IMG/VR virus record: IMGVR_UViG_3300009008_000005
Span: 1 to 64,000 of that record
DNA from: a virus
Length of the DNA stretch: 64,000 nucleotides
Strand: one strand, 5' to 3'
Part shown: positions 7,923 through 64,000 of the stretch, in pieces
Position numbering within the stretch: the first letter of the stretch is position 1
Layout: every line of letters starts with the position of its first letter
Notes under the pieces: model-generated
The model's input: the letters and a program-made list of their open reading frames with translations, nothing else
The model's database searches: none
Told to the model about the DNA's origin: nothing
Made by a program: the position numbers and the translations under genes

Positions 7923-7939
7923 GTATTTCGTTGAAATAC
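7923..7939. promoter_or_regulatory. Palindromic site copy 1, GTATTTC-GTT-GAAATAC
   Basis: Intergenic, immediately upstream of the polymerase start. Confidence 0.8.
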
Positions 7940-7950
7940 TTTGAGGCAGC

Positions 7951-9837
7951 GTGATGCTAGACGTATCACGTCTGCTGCCAAAGCCGATCACCATCCGTAC
8001 GGATGAGGAAGCGGAGAAGCTGCTGCTGGACCTGGAGGAGCTGGAGGTCGTCGCCTATGACACGGAGACGACAGGCCTCTCCAGGATCAGTGACATCGCT
8101 CTCTTCCTCGCACTGTCGGATGGTGTTAGGCGTTGGTGTGTAGGTCCGGAACAGATAGGTAAGTTCAAGCACGCTCTAATGCGGCCTGATCTCAAGCTTG
8201 TCGCACACAACTCCAACTACGACGCCTGGATGATGCACAACATCGGCATCCCTCTGCACCACACGAGGAACAGAAGGTTCGATACCGCCGTAATGCATCT
8301 CCTCTACGACGATGACGCTCCTCACGACTTGGAGTTCATCGCTCAGGACCTTCTAGGTATTCGTAAGCTCTCTTTCTCCAAGATGTTCAAGCTGAAGAAG
8401 GGTGACAAGGTCGGCGAAGTTCTGATGAAGTACTGGGACAGCGGGGACTGGGAGAAGGTATCCCACTACGCCTCCCTGGATGCATACGCAACCATGCTCA
8501 TCTTCGACCGCCTGCGTGATCTTCTTATGGAAGAGGACATCGACGAGGAGAACACCCTCTGGGACTACTACCTGAACTACGAACTCCCCTACGGCGATGT
8601 ACTGTTCCAGCTAGAGCTGAACGGTATCGAAGTAGACATGGACAACCTGCTGGAGCTGATCCCTCAGTTCGAGACCAGGGAGCACGAACTTGCGAAGTGG
8701 TTCGCACGAGAAGCTGGGGAACTTTGCAAGACCACAGGTAAGACCGTACACCGATTATTCTTCGAGACACTCCAGAAGGAACCTCTGGGCTACACGGACA
8801 CTAACCAGCCACAGCTGAACAAGGACTGTCTTGGTAGGTGGGCTGCGCAGGGATGCGAACACTCCGCAAAACTCCTGGAGTGGAGACAGACCAAGGACTT
8901 CTTAGGTAAGTACCTTCGGAACATCGTTGGCTTCGCAAAGCTGGGTAACGGGAGGGTGCATCCCACCTACAACCAGCACATCGTCAGGTCCGGGAGGCTG
9001 AGTAGTGCCGACCCAAACATGCAGAACCAGCACCCTGAAATCAAGCACGCCTACGTGCCTGGTAAGGGTAAGGTCTTCATGTGCTCGGACTACGCCCAGA
9101 TGGAGTGGCGTGTAGCAGCGCACCTGTCCGGGGATCCCAAGATGATCGCTGATATCCTGGATGGTCGTGACGCCCACGCATCCACAGCAGCAGCGGTCTT
9201 CAATGTCCCCTATGACGACATCATAGCAGCGAAGAAAAGAGGTGAAGAAGGTACTGCAACTGAAGAGGACATGGCTCTACTGAAGCTACGTTCGAATGCA
9301 AAGACCCTGAACTTCGGCGTCCTCTTCGGAGAGGGTGCACAGGGTGTGGCGCATAGCCTTGGTATCTCACTCGAAGAAGCACAGCAGATGCTATACACCT
9401 TCCGAGATACCTACAAGGTACTACACAAGTACTTCTGGAGGATCATCGGAGAGGCGGAAGAAACTGGTGTGTGCTGGACGATGTTGGGGAGGCCTAGGCG
9501 TCTCCGTCACATCGGATCCGGTAGAAGGTCGAAGGCCGCAGAGGACGAGAGGAAGGCGAAGAATAGTCCTATCCAAGGCAGTGCATCAGATCTCATGAAG
9601 GTCGTGATGATGCAGCTACATGACCTGGATGAGTTCCAGGAGGGTAGGGCGAAGATGGTTGCGCAAGTGCACGATGAGATCCTGCTGCAACTGGACGAAG
9701 AGCTACGGCATGATGAGAGCTTCGTCAACACAGTGCTGACTATCATGCGGAACCCACTAGGGCCTGACACCCTGTGCGTACCTCTCCCTGTAGATACGGG
9801 ATGGGGCACCACATGGAAGGAAGCCAAAGGAGCCTGA
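7951..9837 (+). CDS. polA: DNA polymerase family A with 3'-5' exonuclease domain
   Basis: Exo I YDTETTG, Exo II HNSNYD, Exo III YASLDA; motif A DYAQME, motif B RSNAKTLNFG, motif C VHDE. Confidence 0.95.
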   Translation: MMLDVSRLLPKPITIRTDEEAEKLLLDLEELEVVAYDTETTGLSRISDIALFLALSDGVRRWCVGPEQIGKFKHALMRPDLKLVAHNSNYDAWMMHNIGIPLHHTRNRRFDTAVMHLLYDDDAPHDLEFIAQDLLGIRKLSFSKMFKLKKGDKVGEVLMKYWDSGDWEKVSHYASLDAYATMLIFDRLRDLLMEEDIDEENTLWDYYLNYELPYGDVLFQLELNGIEVDMDNLLELIPQFETREHELAKWFAREAGELCKTTGKTVHRLFFETLQKEPLGYTDTNQPQLNKDCLGRWAAQGCEHSAKLLEWRQTKDFLGKYLRNIVGFAKLGNGRVHPTYNQHIVRSGRLSSADPNMQNQHPEIKHAYVPGKGKVFMCSDYAQMEWRVAAHLSGDPKMIADILDGRDAHASTAAAVFNVPYDDIIAAKKRGEEGTATEEDMALLKLRSNAKTLNFGVLFGEGAQGVAHSLGISLEEAQQMLYTFRDTYKVLHKYFWRIIGEAEETGVCWTMLGRPRRLRHIGSGRRSKAAEDERKAKNSPIQGSASDLMKVVMMQLHDLDEFQEGRAKMVAQVHDEILLQLDEELRHDESFVNTVLTIMRNPLGPDTLCVPLPVDTGWGTTWKEAKGA

Positions 9838-9838
9838 G

Positions 9839-10021
9839 ATGAAGAAGTATGGTGTGGACCAGACCGGGTACTCAAAGACAAAGACAGCAGATCCTTCGGA
9901 GGATACTCCCAAGTGTCCTGAGTGCGAGAAGCCTACAGAGGACGACTCCAACTCTCTGGTGTGTCCTACCCACGGGACCAAGCCCTTCGAGGTGAAGAAG
10001 GATGGCAAAGAAGAAGACTAA
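9839..10021 (+). CDS. Small Zn-ribbon protein
   Basis: 60 aa; CPEC...CPTH; KTA motif; tight coupling to both neighbours. Confidence 0.65.
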   Translation: MKKYGVDQTGYSKTKTADPSEDTPKCPECEKPTEDDSNSLVCPTHGTKPFEVKKDGKEED

Positions 10022-11153
10022 GAAAGAGAAGCCTAGTGAGCTGGTGGAGAAGCTGCGGGCCCGTATGAAGGGCAAGGCTGAGTTCAGAACCGCAGCAGAG
10101 GTCGCACCTACATACTCCCTCCGCAGGCCCTTCGGTATCCCCTCACTGGACATCGATCTCCGTGGAGGCATGCCAGCAGGGACCGTGGCGCAGATGTATG
10201 GGAAGGATGGCTCAGGTAAAAACTACCTGACGAATTGTGCGATCAAGAAGCTACAGGACAACTACGGGGATGCGGCCAAGGTCTTCATCCTGTCTTTCGG
10301 CTATGAGATCGACAAGACTGCGATGCTCATGGCGGGCGTGCACATGCCCTACACGAAGGACATCAAGGAAGCCGGGATCAAGGAAGACGACCCCAAGTAC
10401 GCACACCTCTTCGAACCGAAGGGGGAACTGATCATCATCTCCACGGGTATGGACAAGCGTTCAAAGTCCCACCCTGCGGAGAGCATGATGGAGGCCGTAC
10501 TCGCCTGCGTGGAGACTGGAGAGTTCCAGCTCGGAATCGTGGACGAGATGCCTGCGGCTATGACTGCACACAGCAGAGCCATCAAGCACTTCGGAGACAA
10601 GGGACAACCTGGTGGAGTTGCATCTCTACTGTCGGACTTCCAGCGCAACTATCACAGAGCGATGGAAGAGGTTACTGGTAACGAGACGAACCTCGTGATC
10701 ATCAACCAGATGCGTGCAAGGATCGGTAGAGGGCAGGGACCTACAACTACTCAAGGTCTCGGCTGGGCCCTCAGACACCTGAAGGCTGTAGACATTCACC
10801 TGAAGCCTGTCGGTCAACTCAAGGTCGCAGAGCAGAAGATCGGGAAGCGTATCCACTACCTCGTGGATAAGGGTAAGTGCGGACTCAGCGAGGGTGGAGA
10901 AGGGGAGTACAACTTCCTCTTCTACCACGGGGCTGACATCCACTTCGACATCCTCAACCTGGGGGCAGACCTAGGTGTGATAGAGAAGCGGGGAACAAGC
11001 TACTACTACTTCCATGATGTTGACGGAGAAGTGCAGAAGGTTCAGGGGCTGAGCCAGTTCAAGAACTATTGCGACGAGAATCCAGATGCATTGCAGTACT
11101 TCTATGACCAGGTCATGGTCGCTGCAGGGCTATCGGGGGTTAGGTACGTGTAA
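10002..11153 (+). CDS. recA: RecA/UvsX-like recombinase
   Basis: GIPSLDIDLRGG, GKDGSGK Walker A, IVDE Walker B, IINQMR, GWALRH, KIGK...VDKGK. Confidence 0.9.
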   Translation: MAKKKTKKEKPSELVEKLRARMKGKAEFRTAAEVAPTYSLRRPFGIPSLDIDLRGGMPAGTVAQMYGKDGSGKNYLTNCAIKKLQDNYGDAAKVFILSFGYEIDKTAMLMAGVHMPYTKDIKEAGIKEDDPKYAHLFEPKGELIIISTGMDKRSKSHPAESMMEAVLACVETGEFQLGIVDEMPAAMTAHSRAIKHFGDKGQPGGVASLLSDFQRNYHRAMEEVTGNETNLVIINQMRARIGRGQGPTTTQGLGWALRHLKAVDIHLKPVGQLKVAEQKIGKRIHYLVDKGKCGLSEGGEGEYNFLFYHGADIHFDILNLGADLGVIEKRGTSYYYFHDVDGEVQKVQGLSQFKNYCDENPDALQYFYDQVMVAAGLSGVRYV

Positions 11154-14350: not shown

Positions 14351-14362
14351 TAGACGGAGTGA

Positions 14363-19243: not shown

Positions 19244-19260
19244 ATATTTCACTGAAATAC
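19244..19260. promoter_or_regulatory. Palindromic site copy 2, ATATTTC-ACT-GAAATAC
   Basis: Intergenic, about 65 nt upstream of the 19179 start. Confidence 0.8.
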
Positions 19261-23800: not shown

Positions 23801-26360
23801 TATGTGCTAAGAATTTGGTCAGCTGCGGAGATATTTCGCTGAAATACTCAGTAATGAAGGTCTCGTCTGGATCTTCCTGTGTGAGGATCTGGGACAGGGT
23901 AGCCTTGAACGGAGCAGCATGTGTAGAGTCGGCTACCTGCTCCCCGGTGATGTTGTCGATGATCCACTTACCTACAGGGGCCCAATCCACGAACACGGAG
24001 AAGTCCTCGTAGTTCCACACTGGTACTACGACACTTCCCTCCTCATCACAGATTGTGAACTCCATGGTGGCTAGAGCCCACAAGTGGGGTTTCACAGAGG
24101 ACGTGAACACAGGCTCAAAGATGATGTCTACAAACTCCGTATAGACCTCTAGCACCTGCCAGTCTAGGAAGTCTCCCCAGGCTAGGGTCGTCCCAAGGGT
24201 TCGCTCACAGACATCCACCACGTAGGCCGGGTGTGTACCCGGGACGGGGTCAATGAGTAGAGCTTGCTCACTCTCCGCTTTGATGAGGTAATCCTGATCC
24301 TCGATACGTAGGAGCTTTCCTATGATACCTGAAGGGAAAATGCCTGCATGCAACCTAAACTGCATGCGCTCCTTGCGCTCCTCGATGTAGAACTCGACGT
24401 TGGTGTAGCTCGTAAGCTCCTGCGGTGCCGCAAAATAGGCTGCACCTAGGGCGACGCTGTCGATGGTCCAGGAAGTCCCAGCGTCAGGTCCATTGATTAT
24501 GTGGACCGTGCTGCCCACATCTGCTGCCACGAATGGATACGAGGGCGAACCCATTACATCATCTGTGTGCGGTCCACCGGGATCGTGAACCACCACCCCA
24601 TCGTATCTTCGGAGTGGTACCAGCTCACAGACACCAGTCTTCAGGCCCGATCCAAGTACAGTGTAGGCATCGAGTTCAGTCTCTGCGACGTAGTATGTTG
24701 CGTTCTCGCCTGCGGCCACGCTGTTCACATGGCTCTCGCCGGAGTCCTCGTCTACAAGGAGTGCTTTGAAGGGCCCTCTGACGGGGCGCTCTAGAGGGAG
24801 GAGGTAGGATGATGTGATGTCTGAGTCCCCGTCATCCTGGATCGTACAAGTCAGCCTCTTGTAGCCAGGGTAACCAGAGACCGTAGTAGTCGTATCCTCC
24901 TCGGTGGGAAAACCGACCCATTTCCTCTGGTAGACGGTAGGGATGTCCTGGAGGGTTTTGGCATAGTCGTCCTGCCAGCCCTTGTACAACTCCCCCGTAA
25001 CCGTCTGCATCATTCCAGACCAGATGTGGTCGAAGACCTCCTTGTCTCCCGACACCCTGGTCCAGAAGTCTGGGATGGTCTGCCACATGACGGAACCATC
25101 AGGTACCGTCTCCAGCAGATGTTCAGACGAGGTAGCTACGATCGTTGCTGTTGCCTGGGTACTGTTCTGCGACCCGTCATTCACAGTCAGTCCCAGCACA
25201 TACTGCCCACGGGACATCGGTACGAAGGTGGGCTGTGCCAGGTCGGAGTCGATACCCCCGGAGAGATTCCAGGTGCCAGGAATCACTCCACCAATACCAG
25301 AGTTGGTCAACTCTGAAGTGAATGTATCCGTGATCGTTGCGGAGAATCCGAACTTCAAGGCTTCCTGCATAATGGTGTGCAGGTTCAGGTAACTGGTCGT
25401 CACGGGAGCTACGATCGTTAGGACTGTTCCGATCAACTGAATGCTGAGGACGGGCCCGTGCGAGATGGTGACGGAATAGGTGTTACCGGCAAGTCCGAGG
25501 AATGTGGTGGACACCTTCCACGTGAAGTCTATCGTCGTGTTCGCCTGTACCAGGCCTTCGAGCAGAGGCCTCTCCGCTCCAGAAGGAAACTGCATGATCT
25601 GCCAGGAGTACGTGAGCGCATGCCCGTCTGGGTCATAGCTATCAATACCTGAGAGTTGGGTGGGCTGGCCTGTAACAGCCATGTCCTGGGTAGTGATTAC
25701 AGCTACTGGCTCCGCCGTGGGCAGTAGAGCGTTCGAACTTAGACGGAAGGAGCCTAGGAGGATCTCCCCCTTGCCACACTGGACCTCAACCGCATTCGTG
25801 ACAGACACCAGGGGTTCTGGGGCCGTGATATAGAAGCTCTCAGACAAGGTCGGGGTAGACAGGAACAGATTGATCTTGCTCCCGTCGTTGACCCCCCGTA
25901 CCGTAAGCCACTCGTTGGACTCCAGGAATCTCGAAGTGTCTGAGAGTAGCTGTGGTGTTCCGGACTGAGTCTGGATATGGCCGACACCCTGCTGGCTAAG
26001 GAACAGACGTACTAGGGAACCTTGGGCATCTACCACCCCCAGAAGAATCTTCAGTGGGTCCGACAGGTCAGCAGGGAGAGTCGAGTAGGTACATCGGACG
26101 GTGAACTCGAAGGTGTTCGTAGCCGGGACTACGGACGGATAGAGGATCTGAGATCCCTGCGACAGGAGTAGGTTGTCACCGAAGGTCGTTACCGTACCCG
26201 CCACATAGGAGGTCGGTTGAGTGAGGAATCCGTTCGTGGTATCACTGAGTAAGGCGTCGAAGCTGGTAGGTGTGTCTACCGTTGAGGCTGCACCCGAGAA
26301 CCAGTCGAACAGGTCGAATCCTGCTCCGCCTTCGCTTAGATATGTACGGGGGAGAGCCAT
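20877..26360 (-). CDS. Large baseplate wedge protein with PKD/Ig-like domain
   Basis: 1827 aa; PKD-like SYDPDGHALTYSWQ...LTVNDG; FWHGPTISNM segment; adjacent to baseplate J. Confidence 0.7.
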   Translation of the reverse strand: MALPRTYLSEGGAGFDLFDWFSGAASTVDTPTSFDALLSDTTNGFLTQPTSYVAGTVTTFGDNLLLSQGSQILYPSVVPATNTFEFTVRCTYSTLPADLSDPLKILLGVVDAQGSLVRLFLSQQGVGHIQTQSGTPQLLSDTSRFLESNEWLTVRGVNDGSKINLFLSTPTLSESFYITAPEPLVSVTNAVEVQCGKGEILLGSFRLSSNALLPTAEPVAVITTQDMAVTGQPTQLSGIDSYDPDGHALTYSWQIMQFPSGAERPLLEGLVQANTTIDFTWKVSTTFLGLAGNTYSVTISHGPVLSIQLIGTVLTIVAPVTTSYLNLHTIMQEALKFGFSATITDTFTSELTNSGIGGVIPGTWNLSGGIDSDLAQPTFVPMSRGQYVLGLTVNDGSQNSTQATATIVATSSEHLLETVPDGSVMWQTIPDFWTRVSGDKEVFDHIWSGMMQTVTGELYKGWQDDYAKTLQDIPTVYQRKWVGFPTEEDTTTTVSGYPGYKRLTCTIQDDGDSDITSSYLLPLERPVRGPFKALLVDEDSGESHVNSVAAGENATYYVAETELDAYTVLGSGLKTGVCELVPLRRYDGVVVHDPGGPHTDDVMGSPSYPFVAADVGSTVHIINGPDAGTSWTIDSVALGAAYFAAPQELTSYTNVEFYIEERKERMQFRLHAGIFPSGIIGKLLRIEDQDYLIKAESEQALLIDPVPGTHPAYVVDVCERTLGTTLAWGDFLDWQVLEVYTEFVDIIFEPVFTSSVKPHLWALATMEFTICDEEGSVVVPVWNYEDFSVFVDWAPVGKWIIDNITGEQVADSTHAAPFKATLSQILTQEDPDETFITEYFSEISPQLTKFLAHTYLRSDVSALDVPHLQEEIATLDGTVYTQYSDYELANKDEAHYIKWNTTSTTVSWAGKRITCPAGPVDYLYLDNGTVLAPYNWNGTAAEVGYEAPVAGTFNAEVPQHSTFPSTWWAELVGFENDPTIDRNFGAAVGFPLVDQDNYKSDVTGIWFAFWHGPTISNMETMANALLDRQLFLTEGTVVNINDTYTSTEGRIFVQDATGTILSFPYTRSLGLAENPKTGAPYAVGDEVEKYWPIAGGIDIEDAVSWPVWFAKHFQGDDYLKKFHTFTVRLSGGTIVEDDLEKLVEIVDDFKPEYSKAIFIHVRVVETDIDVIEKPTFSYSLAHHDTISYAMFTQPVLEDGTLTAYASPVATDGGKAWTINEWAGHIARFVTTGAGLQTWARVVSNTATALTLDTGLTLLGTEDYEIRNAPEQVFPHRYPKTGLIVNDVDGTVMDNVEVYESGYMAGRVDDFSGDGSWHPDAPMEPVDSGVFDGGVGPAYDDSTKTWTPNAMVGDVAYTGNPATAAGVITANTATQITLNPDPGVGAGTVYQIYTTKSRVEPVNLVDGDEDYSKSLVWIEGDIALDGFQLNEWIFDQTGPGRARLLYISNYLNQGTHQRCFMLVQRRNIEGDEPIRMDSADYVDFPIGAGLEGETSGARIAVVSTHRFPVEVFEVDIGRAMPRSNPGVITSYYVGPNGHSAAVDEGLVVDDLQPHDAVTLSPLDLSEENTCPSMYLGQYWWVDTPIMTDYVDVEFPLPGAYSPGPAAGSEWNPGQTIAPNVFDYSGDAGAIAAANNFWVGQNVAIYNSGLTNDGLYRIIAINLGANQFTVAGAPFVNEVGLDFVVRPSTWQAPEVAVKTGDITGAGTFVVTAGAPPVIGEKFLIFDSATAANNAMWDVTNVVGATVTLAGAPLGGAFPEVGVTFINQPSWWQDFKWGNVDPDFVARDQVVFRWEAYGDKIPNWTHGFTSYEFLNYLNLPAVLAMIPVAP
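23831..23847. promoter_or_regulatory. Palindromic site copy 3, ATATTTC-GCT-GAAATAC (intragenic)
   Basis: Encodes Y-F-S-E-I on the minus strand. Confidence 0.75.
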
Positions 26361-35382: not shown

Positions 35383-36311
35383 CAGGTCACCGTGATCTCT
35401 AGGGTTGCGTTCACAGTATTTACATGAGCACTTTGTTCCGGCGTAAGCAAGGCATAATCTGTGGGCATGAAATTTTCTGCAGTTACGTTAGTCGTCCCTG
35501 GAGCGATCCCGGTGATAGTAAACACGGTCCCGTCCATCAAGCCAGTAGCTACAGCATGGTCATCAGTGTCAGTAGCCACACAACCTGAGATATCATCCAT
35601 CACGGCCCACCCGTAGGTGTAAAGCTTCGGGTACAGCTCAATTGTCGCACCTGTGGCTACAGTCACCGTCTCCGTGAGAGATGTGTGCTCTGCGTCGGTG
35701 TAGAACTTCAGATGTCCTGGGACAGGGAAGATAACTGCCGGAAGATTCGCCCCTATAGTCTCAGGTGTGCGAACCTCCCAAGCCGTGTCCTGTAGGCCCG
35801 GGAACCATACGTGCACCAACATATCTCTGGGTAGATCGAGCTGGGCGTATCCATCAGAGTCCAGAACTACCTCCACGGACTTGTTAGATAGGCCGATGAT
35901 CTCATCATTACTCGCAAGAGCTACAGGCGAGTCCTTCTTGACGAAGTAGAACTTCATACCCTCCGGAGGTTCCCCAGATATTTCGGTGAAATACCCCGAG
36001 AGACGGGAATACCTAGCATCGTCGGAAGCAGGTTGCACCGGGCTGTAAACCGTGATCTCCACTACAGGGCTTTCTCCGACCCCGATGTTCACCTCAAACG
36101 TAGAGGGGAGACCAACGGTGGCCCCTAAGATTCCAGGAGCACAGCGCAGGTAATACGTACCTAGTGCTAGACCGATGAACTCCACCTCCCCAGTAGCCGC
36201 TGTGATCTGTGTAGACTGGTGAACCATAATAGATGAGTAGAGCTTTACGTAGGCGTTCTCTATGGGGTCTGACGCAACTGAGTCGAGAACCCTTACGATC
36301 ATATCAGGCAT
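35382..36311 (-). CDS. Virion protein with carboxypeptidase-regulatory-like and Ig-like domains
   Basis: N-terminal beta sandwich (VLD...IENAYVKLY...GTYYL); C-terminal Big_2-like ITGIAPGTTNVTA. Confidence 0.65.
   Translation of the reverse strand: MPDMIVRVLDSVASDPIENAYVKLYSSIMVHQSTQITAATGEVEFIGLALGTYYLRCAPGILGATVGLPSTFEVNIGVGESPVVEITVYSPVQPASDDARYSRLSGYFTEISGEPPEGMKFYFVKKDSPVALASNDEIIGLSNKSVEVVLDSDGYAQLDLPRDMLVHVWFPGLQDTAWEVRTPETIGANLPAVIFPVPGHLKFYTDAEHTSLTETVTVATGATIELYPKLYTYGWAVMDDISGCVATDTDDHAVATGLMDGTVFTITGIAPGTTNVTAENFMPTDYALLTPEQSAHVNTVNATLEITVT
35978..35994. promoter_or_regulatory. Palindromic site copy 4, ATATTTC-GGT-GAAATAC (intragenic)
   Basis: Encodes Y-F-T-E-I on the minus strand. 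Confidence 0.75.
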
Positions 36312-41452: not shown

Positions 41453-41653
41453 TCAATCCTCTTCCAGGAAGACGGACAGGTCGGAGTCGATGTGATTCTC
41501 CATGTTAGGGAGCAGCGTATTCATCGAACCTACTGCGCCCTTGAGCTTCAACTCCTTCAAGAAATCCCGCTCTCTGGTGGCCTTCTCTTCCTCTACATCC
41601 AACCACTCGTCCAGGATGTCTCGTAGCTCCTCAAGCTTTTCCTTAGTTGCCAC
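41453..41653 (-). CDS. Small helical hypothetical protein
   Basis: 66 aa; coupled to the sigma gene. Confidence 0.6.
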   Translation of the reverse strand: MATKEKLEELRDILDEWLDVEEEKATRERDFLKELKLKGAVGSMNTLLPNMENHIDSDLSVFLEED

Positions 41654-42491
41654 TAGCTATACCTGCCCGCTTCAAATGCTCGCCTAGCTGTGAGGCTACG
41701 TTCTTCCTGATACGGTAGATCTTATGGGTAGTCATGCCCGTCTTCTTTGAGATCACCTTCACGTCCGTAGTCCTGGGTCTCCCTAGGCCTGTTAGGTAAC
41801 GGTATACCTCCTGCTCGTCCTCCTTCAGCTCGTACAGAAACAGCTTCATGATCTCCATCTCCTTAGGAGGAGAGACCGCTGTAGGATCAGATTCAAACTG
41901 AGATGTGGTGAGGTCCTTCCGAAGCTCTGTGCGAAGGAGTGTTACCTGCTTCACTGGCCACTTCAAACCATGAGCCAGTTCCCCATCCGTGGGTAGCCGA
42001 CCCAGCTTATCTGTGAGGCGCTGCCTCTTCATCTCGTAGGTGCGGATCTTGTCGATCCTCTCCTCCGGGATGCGGGCTGCATTCTGGTAGGTCTTGATGT
42101 ACCTTCCTGTCTTCCGCATATACCACGTAGCGAAGGTGGACAGACTCGCACCCTTTGCTGGATCGTAACGCTTCAAGCCCTCGATCAGATGCTTGGTGAA
42201 CTCTGTCCGTATCGCCTCTGGAGGAAGCTGTACGTTCCCGATGTACTCGTTGGCTGCTCTGTTGATAAGTGGTTGGAAGGACTCGACCAGGGGTCGCATG
42301 TCTTCAGGGCGCTCTCCGCTAGTCTTCCACTTGAGCCAGAGAGCCATCTCCCTCTGGCGGCTCTTCTGTAGCGGGGCCTTTTCGGGCTTCTTCTCCTCTA
42401 CATCTTCGGTACGAGTATGGCCCTTGACCAGGACCTTCTTCCCGTCCTCCGTACGATAGTACGGCTTTACTGGAACCTTACGAGTAGCCAT
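41643..42491 (-). CDS. RNA polymerase sigma-70-family factor with a basic N-terminal tag
   Basis: Region 2 LIEGLKRYDPAKGASLSTFATWY; region 3 LGRLPTDGELAHGL; region 4 HTH. Confidence 0.9.
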   Translation of the reverse strand: MATRKVPVKPYYRTEDGKKVLVKGHTRTEDVEEKKPEKAPLQKSRQREMALWLKWKTSGERPEDMRPLVESFQPLINRAANEYIGNVQLPPEAIRTEFTKHLIEGLKRYDPAKGASLSTFATWYMRKTGRYIKTYQNAARIPEERIDKIRTYEMKRQRLTDKLGRLPTDGELAHGLKWPVKQVTLLRTELRKDLTTSQFESDPTAVSPPKEMEIMKLFLYELKEDEQEVYRYLTGLGRPRTTDVKVISKKTGMTTHKIYRIRKNVASQLGEHLKRAGIASGN

Positions 42492-42493
42492 AT

Positions 42494-42961
42494 CTAGGCC
42501 CCCGGAATCTTCAGCTTGCGAAGACCTGAGTATATGCCATAGCGGAAGCCTGCTGTCTTCTCCATGTTCTCGAAGATCCCGTGCTTGACGGGGTTCTTGA
42601 ACCCCATCTTGTTTCCGAGCTTCCTGCTGCCTTTATTCGTGTGGACGTACTGCCACTTCCAGCGCTTCACTTCAGGGTGCTTCTTCATAAGGAAGGAAAC
42701 GGCTTTCTCACCAAGACCCTGCCTACGGTATTTCGGCGAAATACCTACGCCAACGAAAGCGGATTTGCTGGAATAAACCTTCTGCTTCTTGTAAGGCCTC
42801 GTAAGCTCTACGAAGCCCATCCACTTCCCTCCATCATATAACCCGTAACCCGTCCGGGCACCTTTAGGTGGGGCTGGGATCGTACCATGACCTGGGAAGT
42901 TTCCTGACTTTACCTTTAGGGCGGAAGCTTTCTTCCTGTCATAGGGGCCTATGCGAATCAC
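42494..42961 (-). CDS. GNAT-family N-acetyltransferase
   Basis: ISPKYRRQGLG acetyl-CoA motif; NKGSRKLGNKMGF; start moved to GTG 42961 after GGAGG. Confidence 0.8.
   Translation of the reverse strand: MIRIGPYDRKKASALKVKSGNFPGHGTIPAPPKGARTGYGLYDGGKWMGFVELTRPYKKQKVYSSKSAFVGVGISPKYRRQGLGEKAVSFLMKKHPEVKRWKWQYVHTNKGSRKLGNKMGFKNPVKHGIFENMEKTAGFRYGIYSGLRKLKIPGA
42728..42744. promoter_or_regulatory. Palindromic site copy 5, GTATTTC-GGC-GAAATAC (intragenic)
   Basis: Perfect 8-bp arms GGTATTTC/GAAATACC inside the GNAT gene. Confidence 0.75.
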
Positions 42962-43265: not shown

Positions 43266-43320
43266 CCCAGAGGACCTAATGGAGAACCAGGCTGCGGCCT
43301 GGTTTTCTTACCCCCTGAAA

Positions 43321-43391
43321 AGTGCAAAAAACGGCCCACTACCTGAGATAAGAATAGTGAACCCCAACCACGTACTAGGAGGTACATCATG
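43321..43391 (+). promoter_or_regulatory. Promoter/RBS cassette copy A
   Basis: AGTGCAAAAA-N14-GAGATAAGAATAGTGAACCCC...GGAGGTACATCATG. Confidence 0.75.
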
Positions 43392-43799: not shown

Positions 43800-43846
43800 G
43801 ACACGATTGGGACAGGGGGCTGCGGCCCCCGTCCCCGTGTCTTCTT
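43800..43846 (+). terminator. Intrinsic terminator
   Basis: GACACG..GGGAC.GGGGGC-TGCG-GCCCCCGTCCCCGTGTC followed by TTCTT. Confidence 0.75.
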
Positions 43847-43914
43847 AGTGCAAAAACTAGCCAAAAAAAGAGATAAGAATAGTGAACCCCTAGCGTACCT
43901 GGAGGTACATCATG
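43847..43914 (+). promoter_or_regulatory. Promoter/RBS cassette copy B
   Basis: AGTGCAAAAA-N13-GAGATAAGAATAGTGAACCCC...GGAGGTACATCATG. Confidence 0.75.
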
Positions 43915-47360: not shown

Positions 47361-48782
47361 TCACTTGATGTTCTTCTCCACATGCCAATCCGAGAAGCTC
47401 GCCTTCGACAAAGCCCCGGACTCGTACTGCTTCTCTGCAGTCACTCGGGCCACTAGACCCACATACCGCTTCTTATTCTGCCATAGATCTTCACGCAATG
47501 CATCATTCAGCCCTGTGCCTACCTTCCCCACAATAGGTCCATGACGGGTCAGGGAATAAGAGAATCCTCCTGCTGCCTTGCCTGCATATTTACCACCACC
47601 TGGGAAGATCTCCCGTACATAGACATCGTGCTCATACCTGAGCTTCGACTTCACAGGACCCTTATCTGTCCAGAGGACAACACCTTCTCTCGTAAGGGGG
47701 TGCTTCCCTGAACCGATGGAATCTAATAGCTTCGACTTGTCCTTCGGTGAGGTAGCTACAGGGGCAACACCTAGGACAGGGTATTTCGCTGAAATAGTAT
47801 GTAGAAGCTGCAGCCTTTCCTTATACGGTAACTTCGTAACATCGTGGCCATTGATCTTCACTGCGTCGAAAAGGAAGATCTTCGTCTTGGCCTTAGCCTC
47901 TGCTTGGATGTGGAGGCTGTTGATGACGGTAGCGTTCAACATACCTCCCACCTTCTCAGGAGGCAGAGGGACTCCGTCTGGACCTATGGCCAGAACCTCC
48001 CCACGGAGGATAGTTGGACCCTTCCCACCCTTGGCCTTCGTAGCGTATAAGTCCTTGATCTTGTGGGTATATTCTAAAAGGTCACCGGTCTTGGACTCCC
48101 TGGTGGAGAAGGCCCGTATCCGCTTCCCAGGTCGCATTAGGACAAGGGCATGCGCCCCATCGAGTTTGGCTCCGACGATGACGTCATCCCTGTTGACGAT
48201 CTCGTCACGCTGAGGTGTCTTCCACCCGATCTCCTTGTACTTCGGCCTGCCCCTAGGGGTTTCCTTCTTGGGGGCCGTCATGTTCACAAGGATCCAATTC
48301 TTCTTCCCTATATGGAGCAGTGCGAAGTCTTCCGTGCTCTTCCCACGGGTCACGGAGAACACGACCTTCTTCTCATCGGACGAATGTATGATGGCGTGGG
48401 AGTACTGCTTCAGGAATACCTTGCCTTGGCCGTACCCTGTCTCAAGCCTCCCCTCGAAGGGCATGTAGTCGTTCTTGTGCGTGAACGTCTGCATGACCAA
48501 TGTGCTCTTCCCTGGGGGAGGGAGAGTGAAGTCCTTCCCCTTCAGGGAGTGCCAGCTATGCGCCTTACCTGAAGGGTCACCCAAACGAAGGTCGAAGTGC
48601 TTCCCGGACTTCTTGGCATGGTGCTCCTGGAGCCCGAAAAGCCACACTTCTCCCCTCGCTGTCGGGATGGGGTGTGTGGTCTTGCTGTAGGGCCCTTCCT
48701 TTAGGTCACGGGTATGCGGCCGGACGTAGACGGTCTTGCCTTTGAGCTTCCGGCTATGCCCATCTACTTGTGTGCGGCCCAT
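47361..48782 (-). CDS. LigD-like protein: 3'-phosphoesterase domain plus ATP-dependent DNA ligase and OB domain
   Basis: PE: QEHHA...HFDLRL, THKNDY.PFEG; ligase: KLDG, GEV, FD, EGVV; OB: GKVGTG; start moved to ATG 48782. Confidence 0.85.
   Translation of the reverse strand: MGRTQVDGHSRKLKGKTVYVRPHTRDLKEGPYSKTTHPIPTARGEVWLFGLQEHHAKKSGKHFDLRLGDPSGKAHSWHSLKGKDFTLPPPGKSTLVMQTFTHKNDYMPFEGRLETGYGQGKVFLKQYSHAIIHSSDEKKVVFSVTRGKSTEDFALLHIGKKNWILVNMTAPKKETPRGRPKYKEIGWKTPQRDEIVNRDDVIVGAKLDGAHALVLMRPGKRIRAFSTRESKTGDLLEYTHKIKDLYATKAKGGKGPTILRGEVLAIGPDGVPLPPEKVGGMLNATVINSLHIQAEAKAKTKIFLFDAVKINGHDVTKLPYKERLQLLHTISAKYPVLGVAPVATSPKDKSKLLDSIGSGKHPLTREGVVLWTDKGPVKSKLRYEHDVYVREIFPGGGKYAGKAAGGFSYSLTRHGPIVGKVGTGLNDALREDLWQNKKRYVGLVARVTAEKQYESGALSKASFSDWHVEKNIK
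47781..47797. promoter_or_regulatory. Palindromic site copy 6, GTATTTC-GCT-GAAATAG (intragenic)
   Basis: Inside the ligase gene, in a different codon phase (I-S-A-K-Y). Confidence 0.75.
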
Positions 48783-48848
48783 TTCTACCCCCAGGATCCA
48801 TCGATTATAGCTCTGCAACTACGTATGGACAAGGTGGTATAAGGATAT

Positions 48849-48988
48849 TGCAAGCGAACGGTGATGCTTGTCACCTCCAGCGTCAAGGTTCCGTCCGCTT
48901 GCACACATCCTCCAAGGCAGGAGGGGTTCACTGTGCGGAGAGGTCCAGGGTTGATTCGCCTCTAGGCGTCCCCTGGACCTCTTCTTAC
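48849..48988 (+). ncRNA. Candidate structured small RNA (three consecutive hairpins)
   Basis: Stems at 48849-48903, 48909-48924 and 48937-48984; TG-N-TATAAG at 48835-48843 just upstream; T-rich tail. Confidence 0.35.
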
Positions 48989-49067
48989 CTGGTGTCCGGA
49001 TACCCCTTTCGGCTTCACTATTGCTGTAGTATAATTGACCCCGACCTCGTACCCGAAGGAGAAAGAA

Positions 49068-50699: not shown

Positions 50700-50716
50700 G
50701 TATTTCGACGAAATAC
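50700..50716. promoter_or_regulatory. Palindromic site copy 7, GTATTTC-GAC-GAAATAC
   Basis: Intergenic, directly upstream of the GAGGAG RBS of the 50730 gene. Confidence 0.8.
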
Positions 50717-50729: not shown

Positions 50730-51014
50730 TTGATGAAAGCCAACTGGATATTCATGGACCCCAAGTCGCTACAAGAACTCTTCGGAACAGACGACCTGTG
50801 GGCCCTAGCTCAAACCTGCATAGACAATGAGGAGCTTCCTCCGGTTGGTCTGGTGCAGGACCTAACCTCACCCGACGAGGTGAGCGGGTGGCACATAGGT
50901 GTCGTAGACGCTCTGCAGGAATCTGCTGCCCGTGCGAACTACCGTGCTGTGGACAGTAAGAAGAAGTTGCGGGCGATGAAGACGAAGCTTCTTGGGAAGC
51001 TGAAGGATAAGTAA
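50730..51014 (+). CDS. Hypothetical protein
   Basis: 94 aa; RBS; TAATG coupling. Confidence 0.65.
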   Translation: MMKANWIFMDPKSLQELFGTDDLWALAQTCIDNEELPPVGLVQDLTSPDEVSGWHIGVVDALQESAARANYRAVDSKKKLRAMKTKLLGKLKDK

Positions 51015-60933: not shown

Positions 60934-60950
60934 CCATTTCTTCGAAATAC
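60934..60950. promoter_or_regulatory. Palindromic site copy 8 (one mismatch), CCATTTC-TTC-GAAATAC, next to a TATAAG -10 box
   Basis: In the divergent intergenic region; TATAAG at 60953-60958. Confidence 0.55.
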
Positions 60951-60987
60951 GGTATAAGGCCGATGTACACCAAAAAGGAGGTACCTA

Positions 60988-61302
60988 ATGGGGCTCAAGA
61001 GAGCTAAAGGACCTGATGACGAACCTACTCTGACCTGTCCGAAATGCGGGGCAGAGGACGAGATCCTGCTTTACCAGCAAGAGAATGCTTACTACTGGGT
61101 TCTCGACATTGACTCCGATGGGTGGGCTGATACCGGGGACGCCTATCCCAAGTATTGGAATGTCGGAGATACACATTTCATCTGCAGGAGCTGTGATGCC
61201 ACCTTGATGGAATCGGACATCCTCAGAAACGGCGTGCCTATACGGGAGGAGATGGAAGATGCGCTAGATGACAACACCTGCTTGGGGAAGCCTAAGAGCT
61301 AG
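60988..61302 (+). CDS. Zn-ribbon hypothetical protein
   Basis: CPKC...CRSC; AAGGAGG RBS. Confidence 0.7.
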   Translation: MGLKRAKGPDDEPTLTCPKCGAEDEILLYQQENAYYWVLDIDSDGWADTGDAYPKYWNVGDTHFICRSCDATLMESDILRNGVPIREEMEDALDDNTCLGKPKS

Positions 61303-61778: not shown

Positions 61779-61788
61779 AACTAAGCAT

Positions 61789-61816
61789 TTGCACGGCAGC
61801 GTAGAGTAGCTATAAC
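61789..61816 (+). promoter_or_regulatory. Putative promoter
   Basis: TTGCAC-N16-TATAAC upstream of 61833. Confidence 0.5.
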
Positions 61817-61832
61817 AGGGGGTGGGGGATTC

Positions 61833-62492
61833 ATGTTAGAGAAAGCTCGGCTCTTCAGGTACGGTGATGCGGCTGAATTCCACACCAATGTCATATACCT
61901 ATCCACGACCGACTGCCTCCGCTACAGAACTTCAGAGCATCCTAAGCTTCACAGAATCTCAGGGCCCGCTGAAGGGCCAGTATGCACAAAGTGCCTAAAA
62001 GCACTGCATGTGCAGTCCGTTCACCTATGGAGTATAGACCCCAAAGGTAGGGACAGGCAAGTCGTCGACAGTGTAATCAACGACCTGGAGAATACAATGG
62101 GACCTAGAGAATTCCGAAGAATTCGGGCGGCTATCAGCCTCACACGAAAGCAACTTGCGGAGGTAACTGGACTTGCGTCGTCCACAATAGCTCGATATGA
62201 ATCGGGCTCCTTTGCAATCCCACGGGGCATCGCACAAGCAGTCATGGCTCTTGAAGGAAAGGTGAATCCTCCTACAGAACGATGGGCAGTTCTGACTGAT
62301 CACGAAATCTCCCAGGTGAATGAATCCGCTGGGTGGTACCGCCGTAAGAAGGGTTGGGTAGCTTACAAGTCCCAGGAGGATGCGGAGACGGCGCACGGCC
62401 TGAAGGGTGGGAACGTCGTCCAGGTCATCGTAAGGAAGTGTATAGAAGAATCCATCTTCCGTGAACGGTGGGATACCCTGAAATTGGCGTAG
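61833..62492 (+). CDS. XRE-family HTH protein with N-terminal Cys/His (Zn-binding) region
   Basis: CTKC; FRRIRAAISLTRKQLAEVTGLASSTIARYESG. Confidence 0.8.
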   Translation: MLEKARLFRYGDAAEFHTNVIYLSTTDCLRYRTSEHPKLHRISGPAEGPVCTKCLKALHVQSVHLWSIDPKGRDRQVVDSVINDLENTMGPREFRRIRAAISLTRKQLAEVTGLASSTIARYESGSFAIPRGIAQAVMALEGKVNPPTERWAVLTDHEISQVNESAGWYRRKKGWVAYKSQEDAETAHGLKGGNVVQVIVRKCIEESIFRERWDTLKLA

Positions 62493-62607
62493 GCCCGGCT
62501 TAGAGCAGAGTGGGAATAAATGAAGACCTGGCCTGAAACGGCCAGAGGAAGAGGCCAGGCAGGAAGCCGGACCGGGGCCTACCATGAGTGTAAAGGGGGA
62601 ATCAAAT

Positions 62608-62997
62608 ATGAGTCAAGACGTAAGACACGTGCCGCTGCACTTTGTGATAGCGTCAGTGGTTTGGAATAGGCGTAGAGTTGCAAGAATAAAGCAAGCGACT
62701 GTCTGCCGAGTTCTAGGGCTAGGACAGACGGGGTACTCGAAGTTCGAGCGGGGGCGGACTCAGCTCAATGCAACAAAGTTCTTCCTCCTAGACTACGTCC
62801 TAGGTAGGGATCTGCACCGTGACATCTATACATTGCACCAGGAATTGATCGACAGAGGCTACTACATCACACCGAATGGTGACTGCACGAAAGGTGTAGA
62901 GATAGAAGAGGTCCGAGCCATCGCTTCGGCTATGTCTTCTTCGCCGCAGCCTTCTTCTTCGGAGCAGCAACCTTCTTTGCCGCTGGCTTTGTCTTAG
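62608..62997 (+). CDS. XRE-family HTH regulator
   Basis: RRVARIKQATVCRVLGLGQTGYSKFERG; start moved to ATG 62608. Confidence 0.75.
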   Translation: MSQDVRHVPLHFVIASVVWNRRRVARIKQATVCRVLGLGQTGYSKFERGRTQLNATKFFLLDYVLGRDLHRDIYTLHQELIDRGYYITPNGDCTKGVEIEEVRAIASAMSSSPQPSSSEQQPSLPLALS

Positions 62998-63250
62998 GAA
63001 CGTCCAGCTTTGCCTGGGCTCTAAGTTCCTGGCTAAGGTTAGTGATCCTGTCGTCGATCTCTTGCATCACCTGTTTGATTGATCCTTCCTGTACCATGGA
63101 ATAGAAGTTGTCTGCCACCTCGATCCCTTTACTCGGTGGACCTAGATCCGTGGTGCAGTAGGTGGCCAGGTGCGAGCGAAGAGTAGACCAGACAGCCCTC
63201 TCATGCTGCAGTCCGATATGTTTGTTCAGGAGTTCTTGCAAGTTAGCCAT
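62930..63250 (-). CDS. Hypothetical protein with histone H1-like PAAKK tail
   Basis: C-terminus KPAAKKVAAPKKKAAAKKT; GAGGA RBS. Confidence 0.7.
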   Translation of the reverse strand: MANLQELLNKHIGLQHERAVWSTLRSHLATYCTTDLGPPSKGIEVADNFYSMVQEGSIKQVMQEIDDRITNLSQELRAQAKLDVPKTKPAAKKVAAPKKKAAAKKT

Positions 63251-63314
63251 AGTGTTTTCCTCAGCTGATGAGATCGCAATCTAGCACAACCTCCCTTCTA
63301 GTATCACCAAACCT

Positions 63315-63343
63315 TTGGGTAGAACGCAAGGCGGGAGTATAAT
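63315..63343 (+). promoter_or_regulatory. Putative sigma70-like promoter
   Basis: TTGGGT-N17-TATAAT upstream of the GGAGGAG RBS. Confidence 0.5.
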
Positions 63344-63361
63344 ATAGACCACGGAGGAGCC

Positions 63362-63685
63362 ATGGAGAGCCCAGATTACTATATAACGATCAATGAAGCT
63401 GTGGCCTTGTACGGTGCCGACCCTAAAGCTATGAGGAGGGAGGCTACGAACCGTGGATGGGGCTACGTAAAATACAACGGGGCCCGGGTCGCCTTTGACC
63501 TCGATGAGTTCCAAGACTGGCTCTGGGGTATCGATGAAAAGACCATACGACGTACGGCCCCACGAGAGACCTGCCTATGCTGTGGTGGGAAGGCTAGGTA
63601 CAAGCGCAGATTTTGCTCTGCCTGTATCTATAAGATGCGTGAAGACTTCGCAGGATCCTTCGACGAGCACTCAGTGGCTATATGA
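63362..63685 (+). CDS. Excisionase/MerR-like HTH protein with C-terminal Cys cluster
   Basis: YITINEAVALYG...RVAFDLDEFQDWL; CLCC...CSAC. Confidence 0.65.
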   Translation: MESPDYYITINEAVALYGADPKAMRREATNRGWGYVKYNGARVAFDLDEFQDWLWGIDEKTIRRTAPRETCLCCGGKARYKRRFCSACIYKMREDFAGSFDEHSVAI

Positions 63686-64000
63686 GTATTTCGGTGAAAT
63701 AGTGGGCGGAATCAACAACAAGCTAGGCTGCGTGACTCTGACCGGGGACGGAACAGGACTGCACATCCCAGATAGCACCTTCTTGGACAACCGGGGTGGC
63801 CGAGCCAAGCTGATATCCATTGGGGATAACGTGACCTTCTCAACCGGAGTCATACTGCTCGTACACGACGCTATGGCGAAGCGTACCGGTGGGAACGTGA
63901 CCTACGGAAGGATCATCATAGAAGACCACGTTTCCATCTCCGCCCGAGTCACTGTCCTCCCCGCTACCAGGATTGGCCGTGGGTCTATTGCAGGTGCGGG
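63639..64000 (+). CDS. Hexapeptide-repeat (left-handed beta-helix) acyltransferase, truncated by the window end
   Basis: Own translation of a frame absent from the ORF track: ISIGDNVTFSTGVILLVHD...GRIIIEDHVSISARVTVLPATRIGRGSIAGA; GTG start tentative. Confidence 0.75.
   Translation, partial: MKTSQDPSTSTQWLYEYFGEIVGGINNKLGCVTLTGDGTGLHIPDSTFLDNRGGRAKLISIGDNVTFSTGVILLVHDAMAKRTGGNVTYGRIIIEDHVSISARVTVLPATRIGRGSIAGA
63686..63702. promoter_or_regulatory. Palindromic site copy 9, GTATTTC-GGT-GAAATAG
   Basis: Immediately after the stop codon of the HTH gene, within the 5' end of the acyltransferase. Confidence 0.75.

What the first reader, a model, noticed from the sequence alone, without database searches (positions are those of the whole stretch)
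7923..63702. Dispersed palindrome RTATTTC-RNY-GAAATA in 8 perfect copies and 1 near-perfect copy, half of them inside genes
Seen: TATTTC-N3-GAAATA starts at 7924, 19245, 23832, 35979, 42729, 47782, 50701 and 63687; a one-mismatch copy starts at 60935. In all 8 perfect copies the spacer is R-N-Y, the 5' flank is a purine, and at least one arm reads GTATTTC. A rough hand estimate at about 56% GC with independent bases gives about 0.001 expected copies per 64 kb. Copies sit upstream of polA, of a tail gene and of the 50730 gene, but also deep inside four CDSs in two codon phases (YFxEI and ISxKY). Selection is therefore on the DNA, not the protein. Spacing is 3-12 kb. Inference: this is more than an ordinary operator and could be a genome-wide protein-binding mark, such as a parS/matS-like partition or condensation site, a self-recognition or protection signal, a packaging signal, or a roadblock/looping repressor network. 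I may have missed degenerate copies.
Basis: partly seen in the sequence, partly recalled or inferred. Interest (0 to 1): 0.85.

Follow-up and report, generated by a model that had tools for sequence, protein, structure and literature searches.

The report
Phage-wide ParB/Noc-type binding sites
A 181-kb marine phage carries 24 perfect copies of a 15-bp palindrome spread evenly through genes and promoters, and it encodes a ParB/Noc-type DNA-binding protein whose known relatives read almost the same half-site, so these are most likely genome-wide loading sites for a phage chromosome-binding protein.

Summary
TATTTC-N3-GAAATA occurs 8 times in the window and 24 times in the 180.8-kb phage genome, plus one one-mismatch copy, against 0 in shuffles. 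Ten copies lie inside genes; synonymous-codon shuffles give 0.11. Spacing is more even than random. Five copies sit 4-7 nt upstream of a promoter core (GGnATAAG) in divergent regions.

The sister phage has a co-evolved variant (TATTTTG-N-CAAAATA, 9 copies in 47 kb). One copy lies in the same loop of the RNA polymerase gene. More distant relatives carry about three copies of TATTAC-N4-GTAATA.

Outside the window (genome 134403-135350) the phage encodes an orphan ParB/Noc-family protein with a ParB-type fold and HTH_ParB domain. Its best structural matches are Noc, ParB and KorB. It has the Noc-type Gln that reads adenine 1 of TATTTC, and a palindrome abuts its operon's promoter. No ParA or integrase was found.

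Best reading: parS/NBS-like sites for this protein, acting as KorB-like operators at some promoters and as nucleation points elsewhere. Binding is inferred, not shown. I rate it a new variant of a known kind. The scan had already noted this palindrome in an overlapping window of the same genome.

The parts
7924..7938 (.). Perfect palindrome TATTTCGTTGAAATA. Intergenic, 3 nt after the stop of the 356-aa gene and 15 nt before the polA start.
19245..19259 (.). Perfect palindrome TATTTCACTGAAATA. Intergenic between two minus-strand late genes, 1 nt after the stop of the 535-aa gene.
23832..23846 (.). Perfect palindrome inside the 1827-aa minus-strand gene, in the YFxEI frame.
35979..35993 (.). Perfect palindrome inside the 309-aa minus-strand gene, in the YFxEI frame.
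42729..42743 (.). Perfect palindrome inside a minus-strand gene (42494-42961/43390), in the ISxKY frame, next to the sigma-like gene.
47782..47796 (.). Perfect palindrome inside the 473-aa minus-strand gene, in the ISxKY frame.
50701..50715 (.). Perfect palindrome. Intergenic, 17 nt upstream of the start of the 93-aa gene at 50733.
60935..60949 (.). One-mismatch copy CATTTCTTCGAAATA in a divergent intergenic region, 4 nt upstream of the promoter core GGTATAAGG that faces gene 60988-61302.
60952..60960 (+). GGTATAAGG, a copy of the phage's recurrent -10-like promoter core (GGnATAAG), directly downstream of the 60935 palindrome.
63687..63701 (.). Perfect palindrome 1 nt after the stop of gene 63362-63685, between convergent genes. 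The following parts of the system lie beyond the window on the same contig (genome coordinates) and cannot be listed here. (a) Sixteen further perfect copies at 66454, 74819, 82406, 88285, 108005, 110089, 113872, 113899, 120052, 132283, 134044, 148022, 154795, 160496, 172216 and 177908. (b) The proposed binder, a 315-aa ParB/Noc-family gene at 134403-135350 (+), with palindrome 134044 ending 4 nt before its operon's promoter-like site. (c) The abutting AAA ATPase gene at 135351-136988.

Best explanation
The palindromes are parS/NBS-type recognition sites on double-stranded DNA for a phage-encoded orphan ParB/Noc-family protein (gene at genome 134403-135350, outside the window).

Proposed mechanism, all inferred: a dimer of this protein nucleates at each RGTATTTC-RNY-GAAATACY site. 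At the five early-type promoters the site spans about -17 to -31, directly upstream of the GGnATAAG core, so occupancy would occlude RNA polymerase. At the protein's own operon the site abuts the -35 element. These copies would be KorB-like promoter-proximal operators, including likely autoregulation. The remaining roughly 18 copies, ten of them written into coding sequence, would serve as evenly spaced nucleation or loading points. From these the protein could spread or slide to coat, silence or organise the whole 181-kb phage chromosome.

Shown here: the enrichment, selection at the DNA level, even spacing, promoter juxtaposition, co-evolution of the motif in relatives, and the existence and fold of the ParB/Noc homologue.

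Not shown: that this protein binds these sites, whether it uses CTP, and what the coating achieves.
For: 1. Enrichment and DNA-level selection.
- 24 perfect copies against 0 in shuffles.
- 10 intragenic copies against 0.11 in synonymous-codon shuffles.
- Genome-wide there are 24 perfect copies, 1 one-mismatch copy and 0 two-mismatch copies (3.3 expected), so recognition looks strict and all-or-none.

2. The element is read as duplex DNA.
- The central R/Y preferences fit two independent, identical half-sites, with no bias relative to gene orientation.
- Five copies lie upstream of promoter cores in divergent regions, where they are unlikely to be transcribed.
- The conserved core folds at only -1.3 kcal/mol.

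3. A cognate-type protein is present.
- The 315-aa protein matches HTH_ParB above the Pfam cut-off.
- It matches Thermus Spo0J at E 2e-8 over residues 14-217 and Noc at about 5e-5.
- Its AF2 model (pLDDT 86.6) has Noc, ParB and KorB structures as top Foldseek hits.

4. The half-site matches the family.
- The consensus NBS is TATTTCCC-GGGAAATA and parS is TGTTTCAC-GTGAAACA (PMC7383237). The phage arm TATTTC equals the outer six bases of the NBS.
- The residue aligned to Noc Q158 (ParB position 173) is Gln in the phage protein and its orthologues. That residue reads adenine 1 of the NBS (PMC7383237).

5. A palindrome abuts the promoter-like site of the protein's own operon.

6. Protein and site type track each other across the clade.
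- The sister phage (100/100 support) has the orthologue and TATTTTG-N-CAAAATA 9 times in 47 kb.
- One copy is in the same RNA polymerase loop as own site 172216. Both phages share a small insertion there that relatives lack.
- Distant relatives that have the orthologue carry three copies each of TATTAC-N4-GTAATA, against 0 for the control.

7. Spacing is more even than random: CV 0.61 against 0.94, p about 0.008.
Against: - No binding data exist.
- The site is 15 bp (6+3+6), one base pair shorter than the 16-bp parS/NBS.
- Box II of the nucleotide-binding fold reads G-Y-L-R-H-K-A instead of GERRxRA, and Pfam ParB_N scores only E 0.04. A CTP switch is therefore uncertain.
- No recognisable C-terminal dimerisation domain was found.
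- The permissive lysines of Noc (K164, K169) are Leu and Asn here.
- Orthologues of the protein occur in relatives (L045/L128 type) that show no dispersed perfect palindrome in 47 kb. The presence of the gene therefore does not by itself predict the high-copy motif.
- In the sister phage no palindrome lies directly upstream of the orthologue.
- Four XRE-type HTH proteins are alternative binders.
- The same 17-bp core is a high-copy intergenic repeat in bacterial MAGs that lack a close homologue of this protein.
Confidence: 0.6

Rival explanations
1. The palindromes form a dispersed operator network for a different phage regulator. Candidates are the XRE-type HTH proteins at 61833-62492, 62584-62997 and 106193-106435. 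The network would resemble the dispersed repressor sites of P1 C1, phiC31 CIRs or mycobacteriophage stoperators, blocking initiation at promoters and elongation inside operons.
For: - Five or six copies sit exactly where a repressor would act, 4-7 nt upstream of GGnATAAG.
- Several copies lie directly after stop codons or before ribosome-binding sites.
- HTH_3 proteins are present, and small XRE dimers typically read short palindromes (general knowledge).
Against: - None of these genes has a palindrome in its own promoter.
- The half-site equals the NBS arm, and a ParB/Noc protein with the matching Gln is present.
- Perfect identity of 24 copies, with no degenerate sites, is unusual for Cro/CI-type operators.
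- No tyrosine integrase was found, so an immunity repressor is not obviously needed.
Confidence: 0.2
2. The sites are read by a host protein. The phage would copy a host-genome palindrome to recruit or evade a host factor.
For: - GTATTTCGSCGAAATAC is the centre of a 33-bp perfect palindrome present 24 times, mostly intergenic, in a 6.4-Mb marine Candidatus Moanabacter MAG whose loci have 52-57% GC, like the phage.
- It also occurs as dispersed or tandem intergenic repeats in Saprospiraceae MAGs.
Against: - The host is unknown, and no link between the phage and these MAGs was tested.
- The bacterial repeats share longer flanks (ATGTTCG...CGAACAT) that the phage copies lack. Position -1 is C in the MAG and a purine in 44 of 48 phage half-sites.
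- The sister phage has changed the motif in step across its whole genome. This is easier to explain with a phage-encoded reader.
Confidence: 0.1
3. The element works as a nucleic-acid hairpin. It could be an RNA processing or translation-control stem-loop, or an extruded DNA hairpin promoter or terminator for the phage's own RNA polymerase, as in N4.
For: - A 6-bp stem with a 3-nt loop resembles N4 hairpin promoters (recalled from general knowledge, not tested).
- Some copies with complementary flanks fold at -6 to -8 kcal/mol.
- Several lie between stop codons and ribosome-binding sites, and one lies between two tRNA genes.
Against: - The conserved core alone folds at -1.3 kcal/mol, and some copies do not adopt the hairpin as their minimum-energy fold.
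- There is no G-U or compensatory variation within the genome, and no orientation bias.
- Copies upstream of promoter cores in divergent regions are probably not transcribed.
- Canonical GC-rich terminators with T-runs are used elsewhere in the genome.
- A symmetric element cannot set the direction of transcription.
Confidence: 0.05

Closest known systems
Noc and its Noc-binding sites (NBS) in Bacillus subtilis
   Same: - Orphan ParB-family protein with no ParA partner.
- Many copies of a strict palindrome scattered over a whole chromosome, including inside genes.
- The outer half-site TATTTC is identical.
- A Gln sits at the position that reads adenine 1.
- Noc structures are the top fold matches.
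   Different: - The site is 15 bp rather than 16, with inner bases G/A-N rather than CC.
- The phage protein lacks Noc's permissive lysines.
- By eye it shows no amphipathic membrane-targeting N-terminus.
- Noc is confined to Firmicutes chromosomes (PMC7383237); this protein is encoded by a marine phage.
- A role in nucleoid occlusion makes no obvious sense for a phage.
KorB and its OB operators on plasmid RK2
   Same: - ParB-CTPase-family protein that doubles as a global transcriptional repressor.
- Identical odd-length palindromes (core TTTAGCSGCTAAA) spread around the replicon.
- Some sites lie at promoters and some far from them, reached by sliding (PMC11790492).
- KorB is among the structural matches (8qa9).
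   Different: - The half-site sequence is unrelated.
- No KorA-like clamp-locking partner or IncC/ParA was identified.
- Box II is partly degenerate.
- There are about twice as many sites, ten of them inside ORFs.
- The replicon is a virus with its own RNA polymerase.
SopB and the four IR centromere sites of prophage-plasmid N15
   Same: A phage-encoded ParB-family protein with several single palindromic sites rather than one clustered centromere (PMC7205306). That the four sites are dispersed over the genome is from my own knowledge.
   Different: - N15 has SopA (ParA) and is a temperate plasmid-prophage with only 4 sites.
- Here there is no ParA and no integrase, and there are 25 sites.
- The distant relatives with about 3 sites per genome look more like N15 in number.
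Stoperators of cluster A mycobacteriophages; phiC31 CIRs; P1 C1 operators
   Same: Twenty or more copies of one binding site dispersed through a phage genome. Many lie in short intergenic gaps next to stop or start codons (general knowledge).
   Different: - Those sites are bound by immunity repressors of temperate phages.
- Stoperators and P1 operators are asymmetric and orientation-dependent.
- They are degenerate and largely avoid coding sequence.

Membership tests
ParB/Noc/KorB protein family (protein 134403-135350) | Central HTH_ParB DNA-binding domain | tested here: met
   PF17762 at E 2.2e-6, 28.2 bits, above the 22.6-bit cut-off, residues 118-199. Noc and ParB DNA-binding-domain structures are matched.
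ParB/Noc/KorB protein family (protein 134403-135350) | N-terminal ParB-CTPase (ParB/Srx) fold | tested here: met
   - phmmer against Thermus Spo0J 1vz0 gives E 2e-8 over residues 14-217.
- Foldseek probability is 1.0 to Noc, ParB and KorB chains that include the N-domain.
- Pfam ParB_N alone scores only E 0.041, below its cut-off, and a six-frame search missed it.
ParB/Noc/KorB protein family (protein 134403-135350) | Intact nucleotide-binding boxes (Box II GERRxRA, Box III ENLQRE) | tested here: inconclusive
   Box III reads EENIKRE, so E and N are kept. Box II reads G-Y-L-R-H-K-A, so one Arg is lost. Orthologues read G-[FY]-R-R-[HY]-x-A. NTP binding was not tested.
ParB/Noc/KorB protein family (protein 134403-135350) | C-terminal dimerisation domain / dimer formation | tested here: inconclusive
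   No Pfam hit for a C-terminal domain. The model has helices up to residue 263 and then a disordered Lys-rich tail.
ParABS partition system | Cognate ParA (Walker-type) ATPase | tested here: not met
   AAA_31 gave no match. CbiA gave only a 14.6-bit fragment. The neighbouring ATPase is a classical AAA (PF00004), not ParA.
parS/NBS-type site | 16-bp palindrome of two 8-bp half-sites, TGTTTCAC or TATTTCCC | tested here: not met
   The phage sites are 15 bp (TATTTC-RNY-GAAATA). The outer six bases equal the NBS, but one central base pair is missing. Distant relatives do have the 6+4+6 geometry, TATTAC-N4-GTAATA.
parS/NBS-type site | Physical binding by the cognate ParB-family protein | not testable with these tools
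   Requires EMSA, BLI or ChIP. Only indirect support is available: Gln at the adenine-1-reading position and a site at the protein's own operon.
Noc (nucleoid occlusion factor) | N-terminal amphipathic membrane-targeting helix; specificity residues Q-K-K-R | tested here: inconclusive
   The Gln is present, but the residues aligned to K164 and K169 are Leu and Asn. The N-terminus MAEKAKMPAEAKK is polar by eye and was modelled at low confidence. It was not formally analysed.
KorB-KorA regulon of IncP plasmids | OB operator TTTAGCSGCTAAA and a KorA partner | tested here: not met
   The half-site is different. The only KORA-like signal is an E 0.12 hit inside the sigma-like protein, which I treat as noise.
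Stoperator / immunity-repressor networks of temperate phages | Asymmetric, orientation-dependent sites plus an integrase/repressor lysogeny module | tested here: not met
   The sites are perfectly symmetric. No tyrosine integrase was found. Serine recombinases were not searched for specifically.

The most novel reading that the evidence does not exclude
An orphan ParB/Noc-type switch protein of a large phage that encodes its own RNA polymerase is loaded at about 25 evenly spaced sites, many written into coding sequence. It coats the entire viral chromosome. This would be a virus-encoded, chromosome-wide marking or organisation system, not a partition device. Possible roles are timing the hand-over between host and phage transcription, compacting or positioning replicating genomes together with the conserved neighbouring AAA ATPase, or shielding phage DNA from nucleases. 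It would have expanded from an ancestral state of about three sites and shortened the site by one base pair.
Probability: 0.25. Interest if true: 0.8.

Novelty: new variant of a known kind. Interest (0 to 1): 0.7.

Why it matters
ParB-CTPase proteins are known as partition clamps (ParB), a nucleoid-occlusion factor (Noc) and a plasmid global repressor (KorB). A recent survey reports that in phages the fold is mostly fused to methyltransferases or domains of unknown function, and that its roles there are unclear (PMC12704722).

This phage offers a canonical-architecture but ParA-less ParB/Noc protein together with a complete, easily read set of candidate sites. The set includes a natural specificity series across relatives: TATTAC-N4, TATTAG-N3, TATTTC-N3 and TATTTT-N3.

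That makes three questions directly testable:
- What a ParB-type protein does for a probably lytic virus.
- How a ParB-family DNA-binding domain tolerates losing one base pair between half-sites.
- How site number expands from about 3 to about 25 per genome, including by recoding genes.

It would also give the first regulatory handle on the uncultured phage clade with a fused beta-beta' RNA polymerase.

Tried and rejected
- Near-identical relatives: none in the phage collection or in IMG/VR by protein or by a palindrome-plus-promoter pattern. The 31 pattern hits were all chance matches in AT-rich contigs.
- Expression data: no RNA holder is listed. Four DNA runs of one marine study hold the phage. 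Laying their contigs showed the same sequence with almost no variation, so population-level conservation could not be tested.
- The first ParB_N six-frame search of the genome was negative. This was a false negative, because the domain is too diverged for the Pfam model.
- PHROGs and Pfam on genes next to the sites gave almost nothing.
- A word-based homologue search for the ParB-like protein found only two small contigs with no DNA available.
- The homodimer prediction for the ParB-like protein returned 'no answer'. It is no evidence either way.
- A scan for dispersed perfect 6+6 palindromes in 85 related loci was positive only for the sister phage and L077. This first suggested a patchy system. 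Looser scans then showed related, lower-copy motifs in other relatives.
- Mobile element (REP/MITE) insertion into the phage was rejected. Intragenic copies arise by synonymous choices or 1-2 codon changes, not by insertion of a unit.
- Late promoter or terminator was rejected as the main reading. The element is symmetric, no directional flanks are conserved, and canonical terminators are present.
- Adjacent genes in Saprospiraceae were examined for a linked binder. They are housekeeping genes.

Full report
**The observation**

The pattern TATTTC-N3-GAAATA occurs eight times in the window, at exactly the stated coordinates. A one-mismatch copy lies at 60935. Dinucleotide-preserving shuffles give none.

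The window is the first 64 kb of a 180,825-bp IMG/VR phage record. The record has 55.5% GC and is 99% complete, and its ends overlap by 72 nt. The whole genome holds 24 perfect copies and the one near-copy.

The mismatch spectrum is all-or-none: 24 perfect, 1 with one mismatch, 0 with two (3.3 expected) and 17 with three (36 expected). The symmetrised consensus extends to RGTATTTC-RNY-GAAATACY. 48 of the 66 TATTTC hexamers in the genome (both strands) lie inside these palindromes, so isolated half-sites are rare.

**Where the copies lie**

I made crude self-trained gene calls (231 genes, 90.7% coding). By these, 15 of the 25 copies fall in non-coding DNA and 10 fall inside genes, in all three frames.

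- Shuffling synonymous codons within each gene gives a mean of 0.11 copies (maximum 2 in 2000 shuffles) against 10 observed.
- At site 177908 the peptide IISAKY is conserved in all relatives. Only this phage chooses the codons that spell the palindrome.
- Spacing around the genome is more even than random (CV 0.61 against 0.94, p about 0.008).
- Five copies (60935, 66454, 82406, 113899, 120052) sit 4-7 nt upstream of GGnATAAG. This is the -10-like core of the phage's most enriched upstream motif. All five are in divergent intergenic regions. By my rough estimate about 0.1 such juxtapositions are expected by chance.
- Other copies lie directly after stop codons, 14-17 nt before start codons, or between two tRNA-Gln genes of a 36-tRNA cluster.

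**DNA or RNA?**

The evidence favours double-stranded DNA read by a symmetric protein, for three reasons.

- The central R..Y preferences fit two independent, identical half-sites (G 71%, A 29%). They show no bias when oriented by transcription.
- The promoter-upstream copies are probably not transcribed.
- The conserved core folds at only -1.3 kcal/mol as RNA, and some copies do not adopt the hairpin at all.

**Relatives**

The phage encodes a 2078-aa fused beta-beta' RNA polymerase. It belongs to, or resembles, the uncultured RNAP-encoding Caudovirales lineage described in PMC7481178. The nearest polymerases are only 55-57% identical.

- The sister phage (100/100 support) carries TATTTTG-N-CAAAATA 9 times in the 47 kb I could read. 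Six copies are intergenic and three intragenic.
- One sister copy lies in the same loop of the polymerase gene as own site 172216, in the same frame. Both phages have a 1-2 codon insertion there that palindrome-less relatives lack. The site has therefore been kept at that place while its sequence changed in step with the rest of the genome. Other sites have moved.
- Perfect high-copy palindromes are absent from 83 other related loci.
- Looser scans show the same architecture at low copy number. TATT-N7-AATA occurs 45 times in 1.6 Mb, against about 10 for other spacers.
- L253 has TATTAG-N3-CTAATA twice.
- A more distant subclade has TATTAC-N4-GTAATA, with three copies per 119-178-kb record in four of the five records searched, one copy in the fifth, and none for the control. 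One copy sits at a conserved place in its polymerase gene, with conserved arms and a variable centre.

**The candidate reader**

A domain inventory of about 190 proteins revealed one HTH_ParB protein, at genome 134403-135350, beyond the window.

- Sequence: it matches Thermus Spo0J over both the N-terminal and HTH domains (E 2e-8), and Noc (about 5e-5).
- Structure: its AF2 model (pLDDT 86.6) has Noc, ParB and KorB as best structural matches.
- Half-site: the consensus NBS is TATTTCCC-GGGAAATA (PMC7383237), so the phage arm equals its outer six bases.
- Specificity residue: in ParB/Noc, position 173 (Noc Q158) decides G against A at base 1. Gln reads adenine. The phage protein and its orthologues have Gln there.
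- Own operon: a palindrome (134044) ends 4 nt before a TTGACC-16-TAGATT match upstream of the protein's operon.
- Conservation: orthologues with the same downstream AAA ATPase occur in the sister phage, in the L045-type phage and in the distant subclade.
- Lifestyle and partners: no ParA and no tyrosine integrase were found.

**Weaknesses of this reading**

- Binding has not been shown.
- The site is 15 bp rather than 16.
- Box II is partly degenerate.
- No dimerisation domain is evident.
- The L045-type phage has the gene but shows no clear motif in 47 kb.
- XRE-type HTH proteins exist as alternative binders.
- The 17-bp core also forms high-copy intergenic repeats in a marine Ca. Moanabacter MAG (24 copies of a 33-bp palindrome) and in Saprospiraceae MAGs. 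These MAGs have no close homologue of the phage protein.

**Verdict**

The feature is real and selected at the DNA level. It is most likely the site set of a phage ParB/Noc-type protein. It works like KorB/OB at some promoters and like Noc/NBS in its genome-wide scatter. It is not a ParABS partition system. I rate it a new variant of a known kind, with moderately high interest.

Noticed in passing
genome 170409-176645 (-), outside the window: A single 2078-aa polypeptide that fuses RNA polymerase beta (Rpb2 domains) and beta' (Rpb1 domains). Hundreds of 2.0-2.9-kaa homologues, some with inteins, occur on 100-200-kb uncultured phage contigs.
   Followed up: partly
window 41643-42491 (-): A 282-aa protein with weak sigma-70 region 2 and region 3 matches, inside the late-gene block. 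It is a possible phage sigma factor for the GGnATAAG promoters.
   Followed up: no
genome-wide, e.g. window 43300-43390 and 43830-43911: A recurrent promoter-like cassette: GTGCAAAAA, about 17 nt, gATAAGAAtaGTGAACCC, then GGAGG and ATG. 21 of 27 plus-strand ATAAGAA copies are intergenic. The GGTATAAG core is shared with relatives.
   Followed up: partly
genome 63840-65873 (-), straddling the window end: A 677-aa protein with QueC-like and family-2 glycosyltransferase matches. It hints at 7-deazaguanine-type DNA or nucleotide modification.
   Followed up: no
genome 72468-78167 (-): A cluster of 36 tRNA genes on one strand. Palindrome 74819 fills the 17-nt gap between tRNA-Gln(ttg) and tRNA-Gln(ctg).
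   Followed up: partly
window 980-1203 and 48783-49067: Two divergent intergenic regions share the element CACCTCCAG(Y)GTCAAGGT, whose function is unknown.
   Followed up: no
L136, L144, L160, L185, L198, L200, L201, L208 (Ca. Moanabacter MAG, G001): A 33-bp perfect palindrome, ATGTTCGTATTTCGSCGAAATACGAACAT, occurs about 24 times in a 6.4-Mb marine verrucomicrobial MAG, mostly intergenic. Its centre equals the phage motif. This is a possible host clue or an independent repeat family.
   Followed up: partly
L145, L148, L151, L157, L171 (Saprospiraceae MAGs): The same 15-bp palindrome occurs in tandem arrays of 2-6 copies spaced 49-56 bp, between housekeeping genes (for example prs and ribosomal protein L25).
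   Followed up: partly
L042:3580 and L128:714: Single perfect palindromes, AGTTTCCCGGGAAACT in the sister phage and AGTTTCCGGAAACT in the L045-type phage. They are intermediate between parS and NBS and may be chance.
   Followed up: no
genome 154277-156913 (-): An 878-aa protein with Hint/intein and LAGLIDADG matches. It also contains palindrome 154795.
   Followed up: no
L077 (67% GC relative): A different palindrome, CGACAG-N-CTGTCG, occurs three times in 16 kb.
   Followed up: no
genome 135351-136988 (+): A 545-aa classical AAA ATPase whose coding sequence starts at the base right after the ParB/Noc-like gene. The gene pair is conserved in the sister phage and in the L045-type relative.
   Followed up: partly
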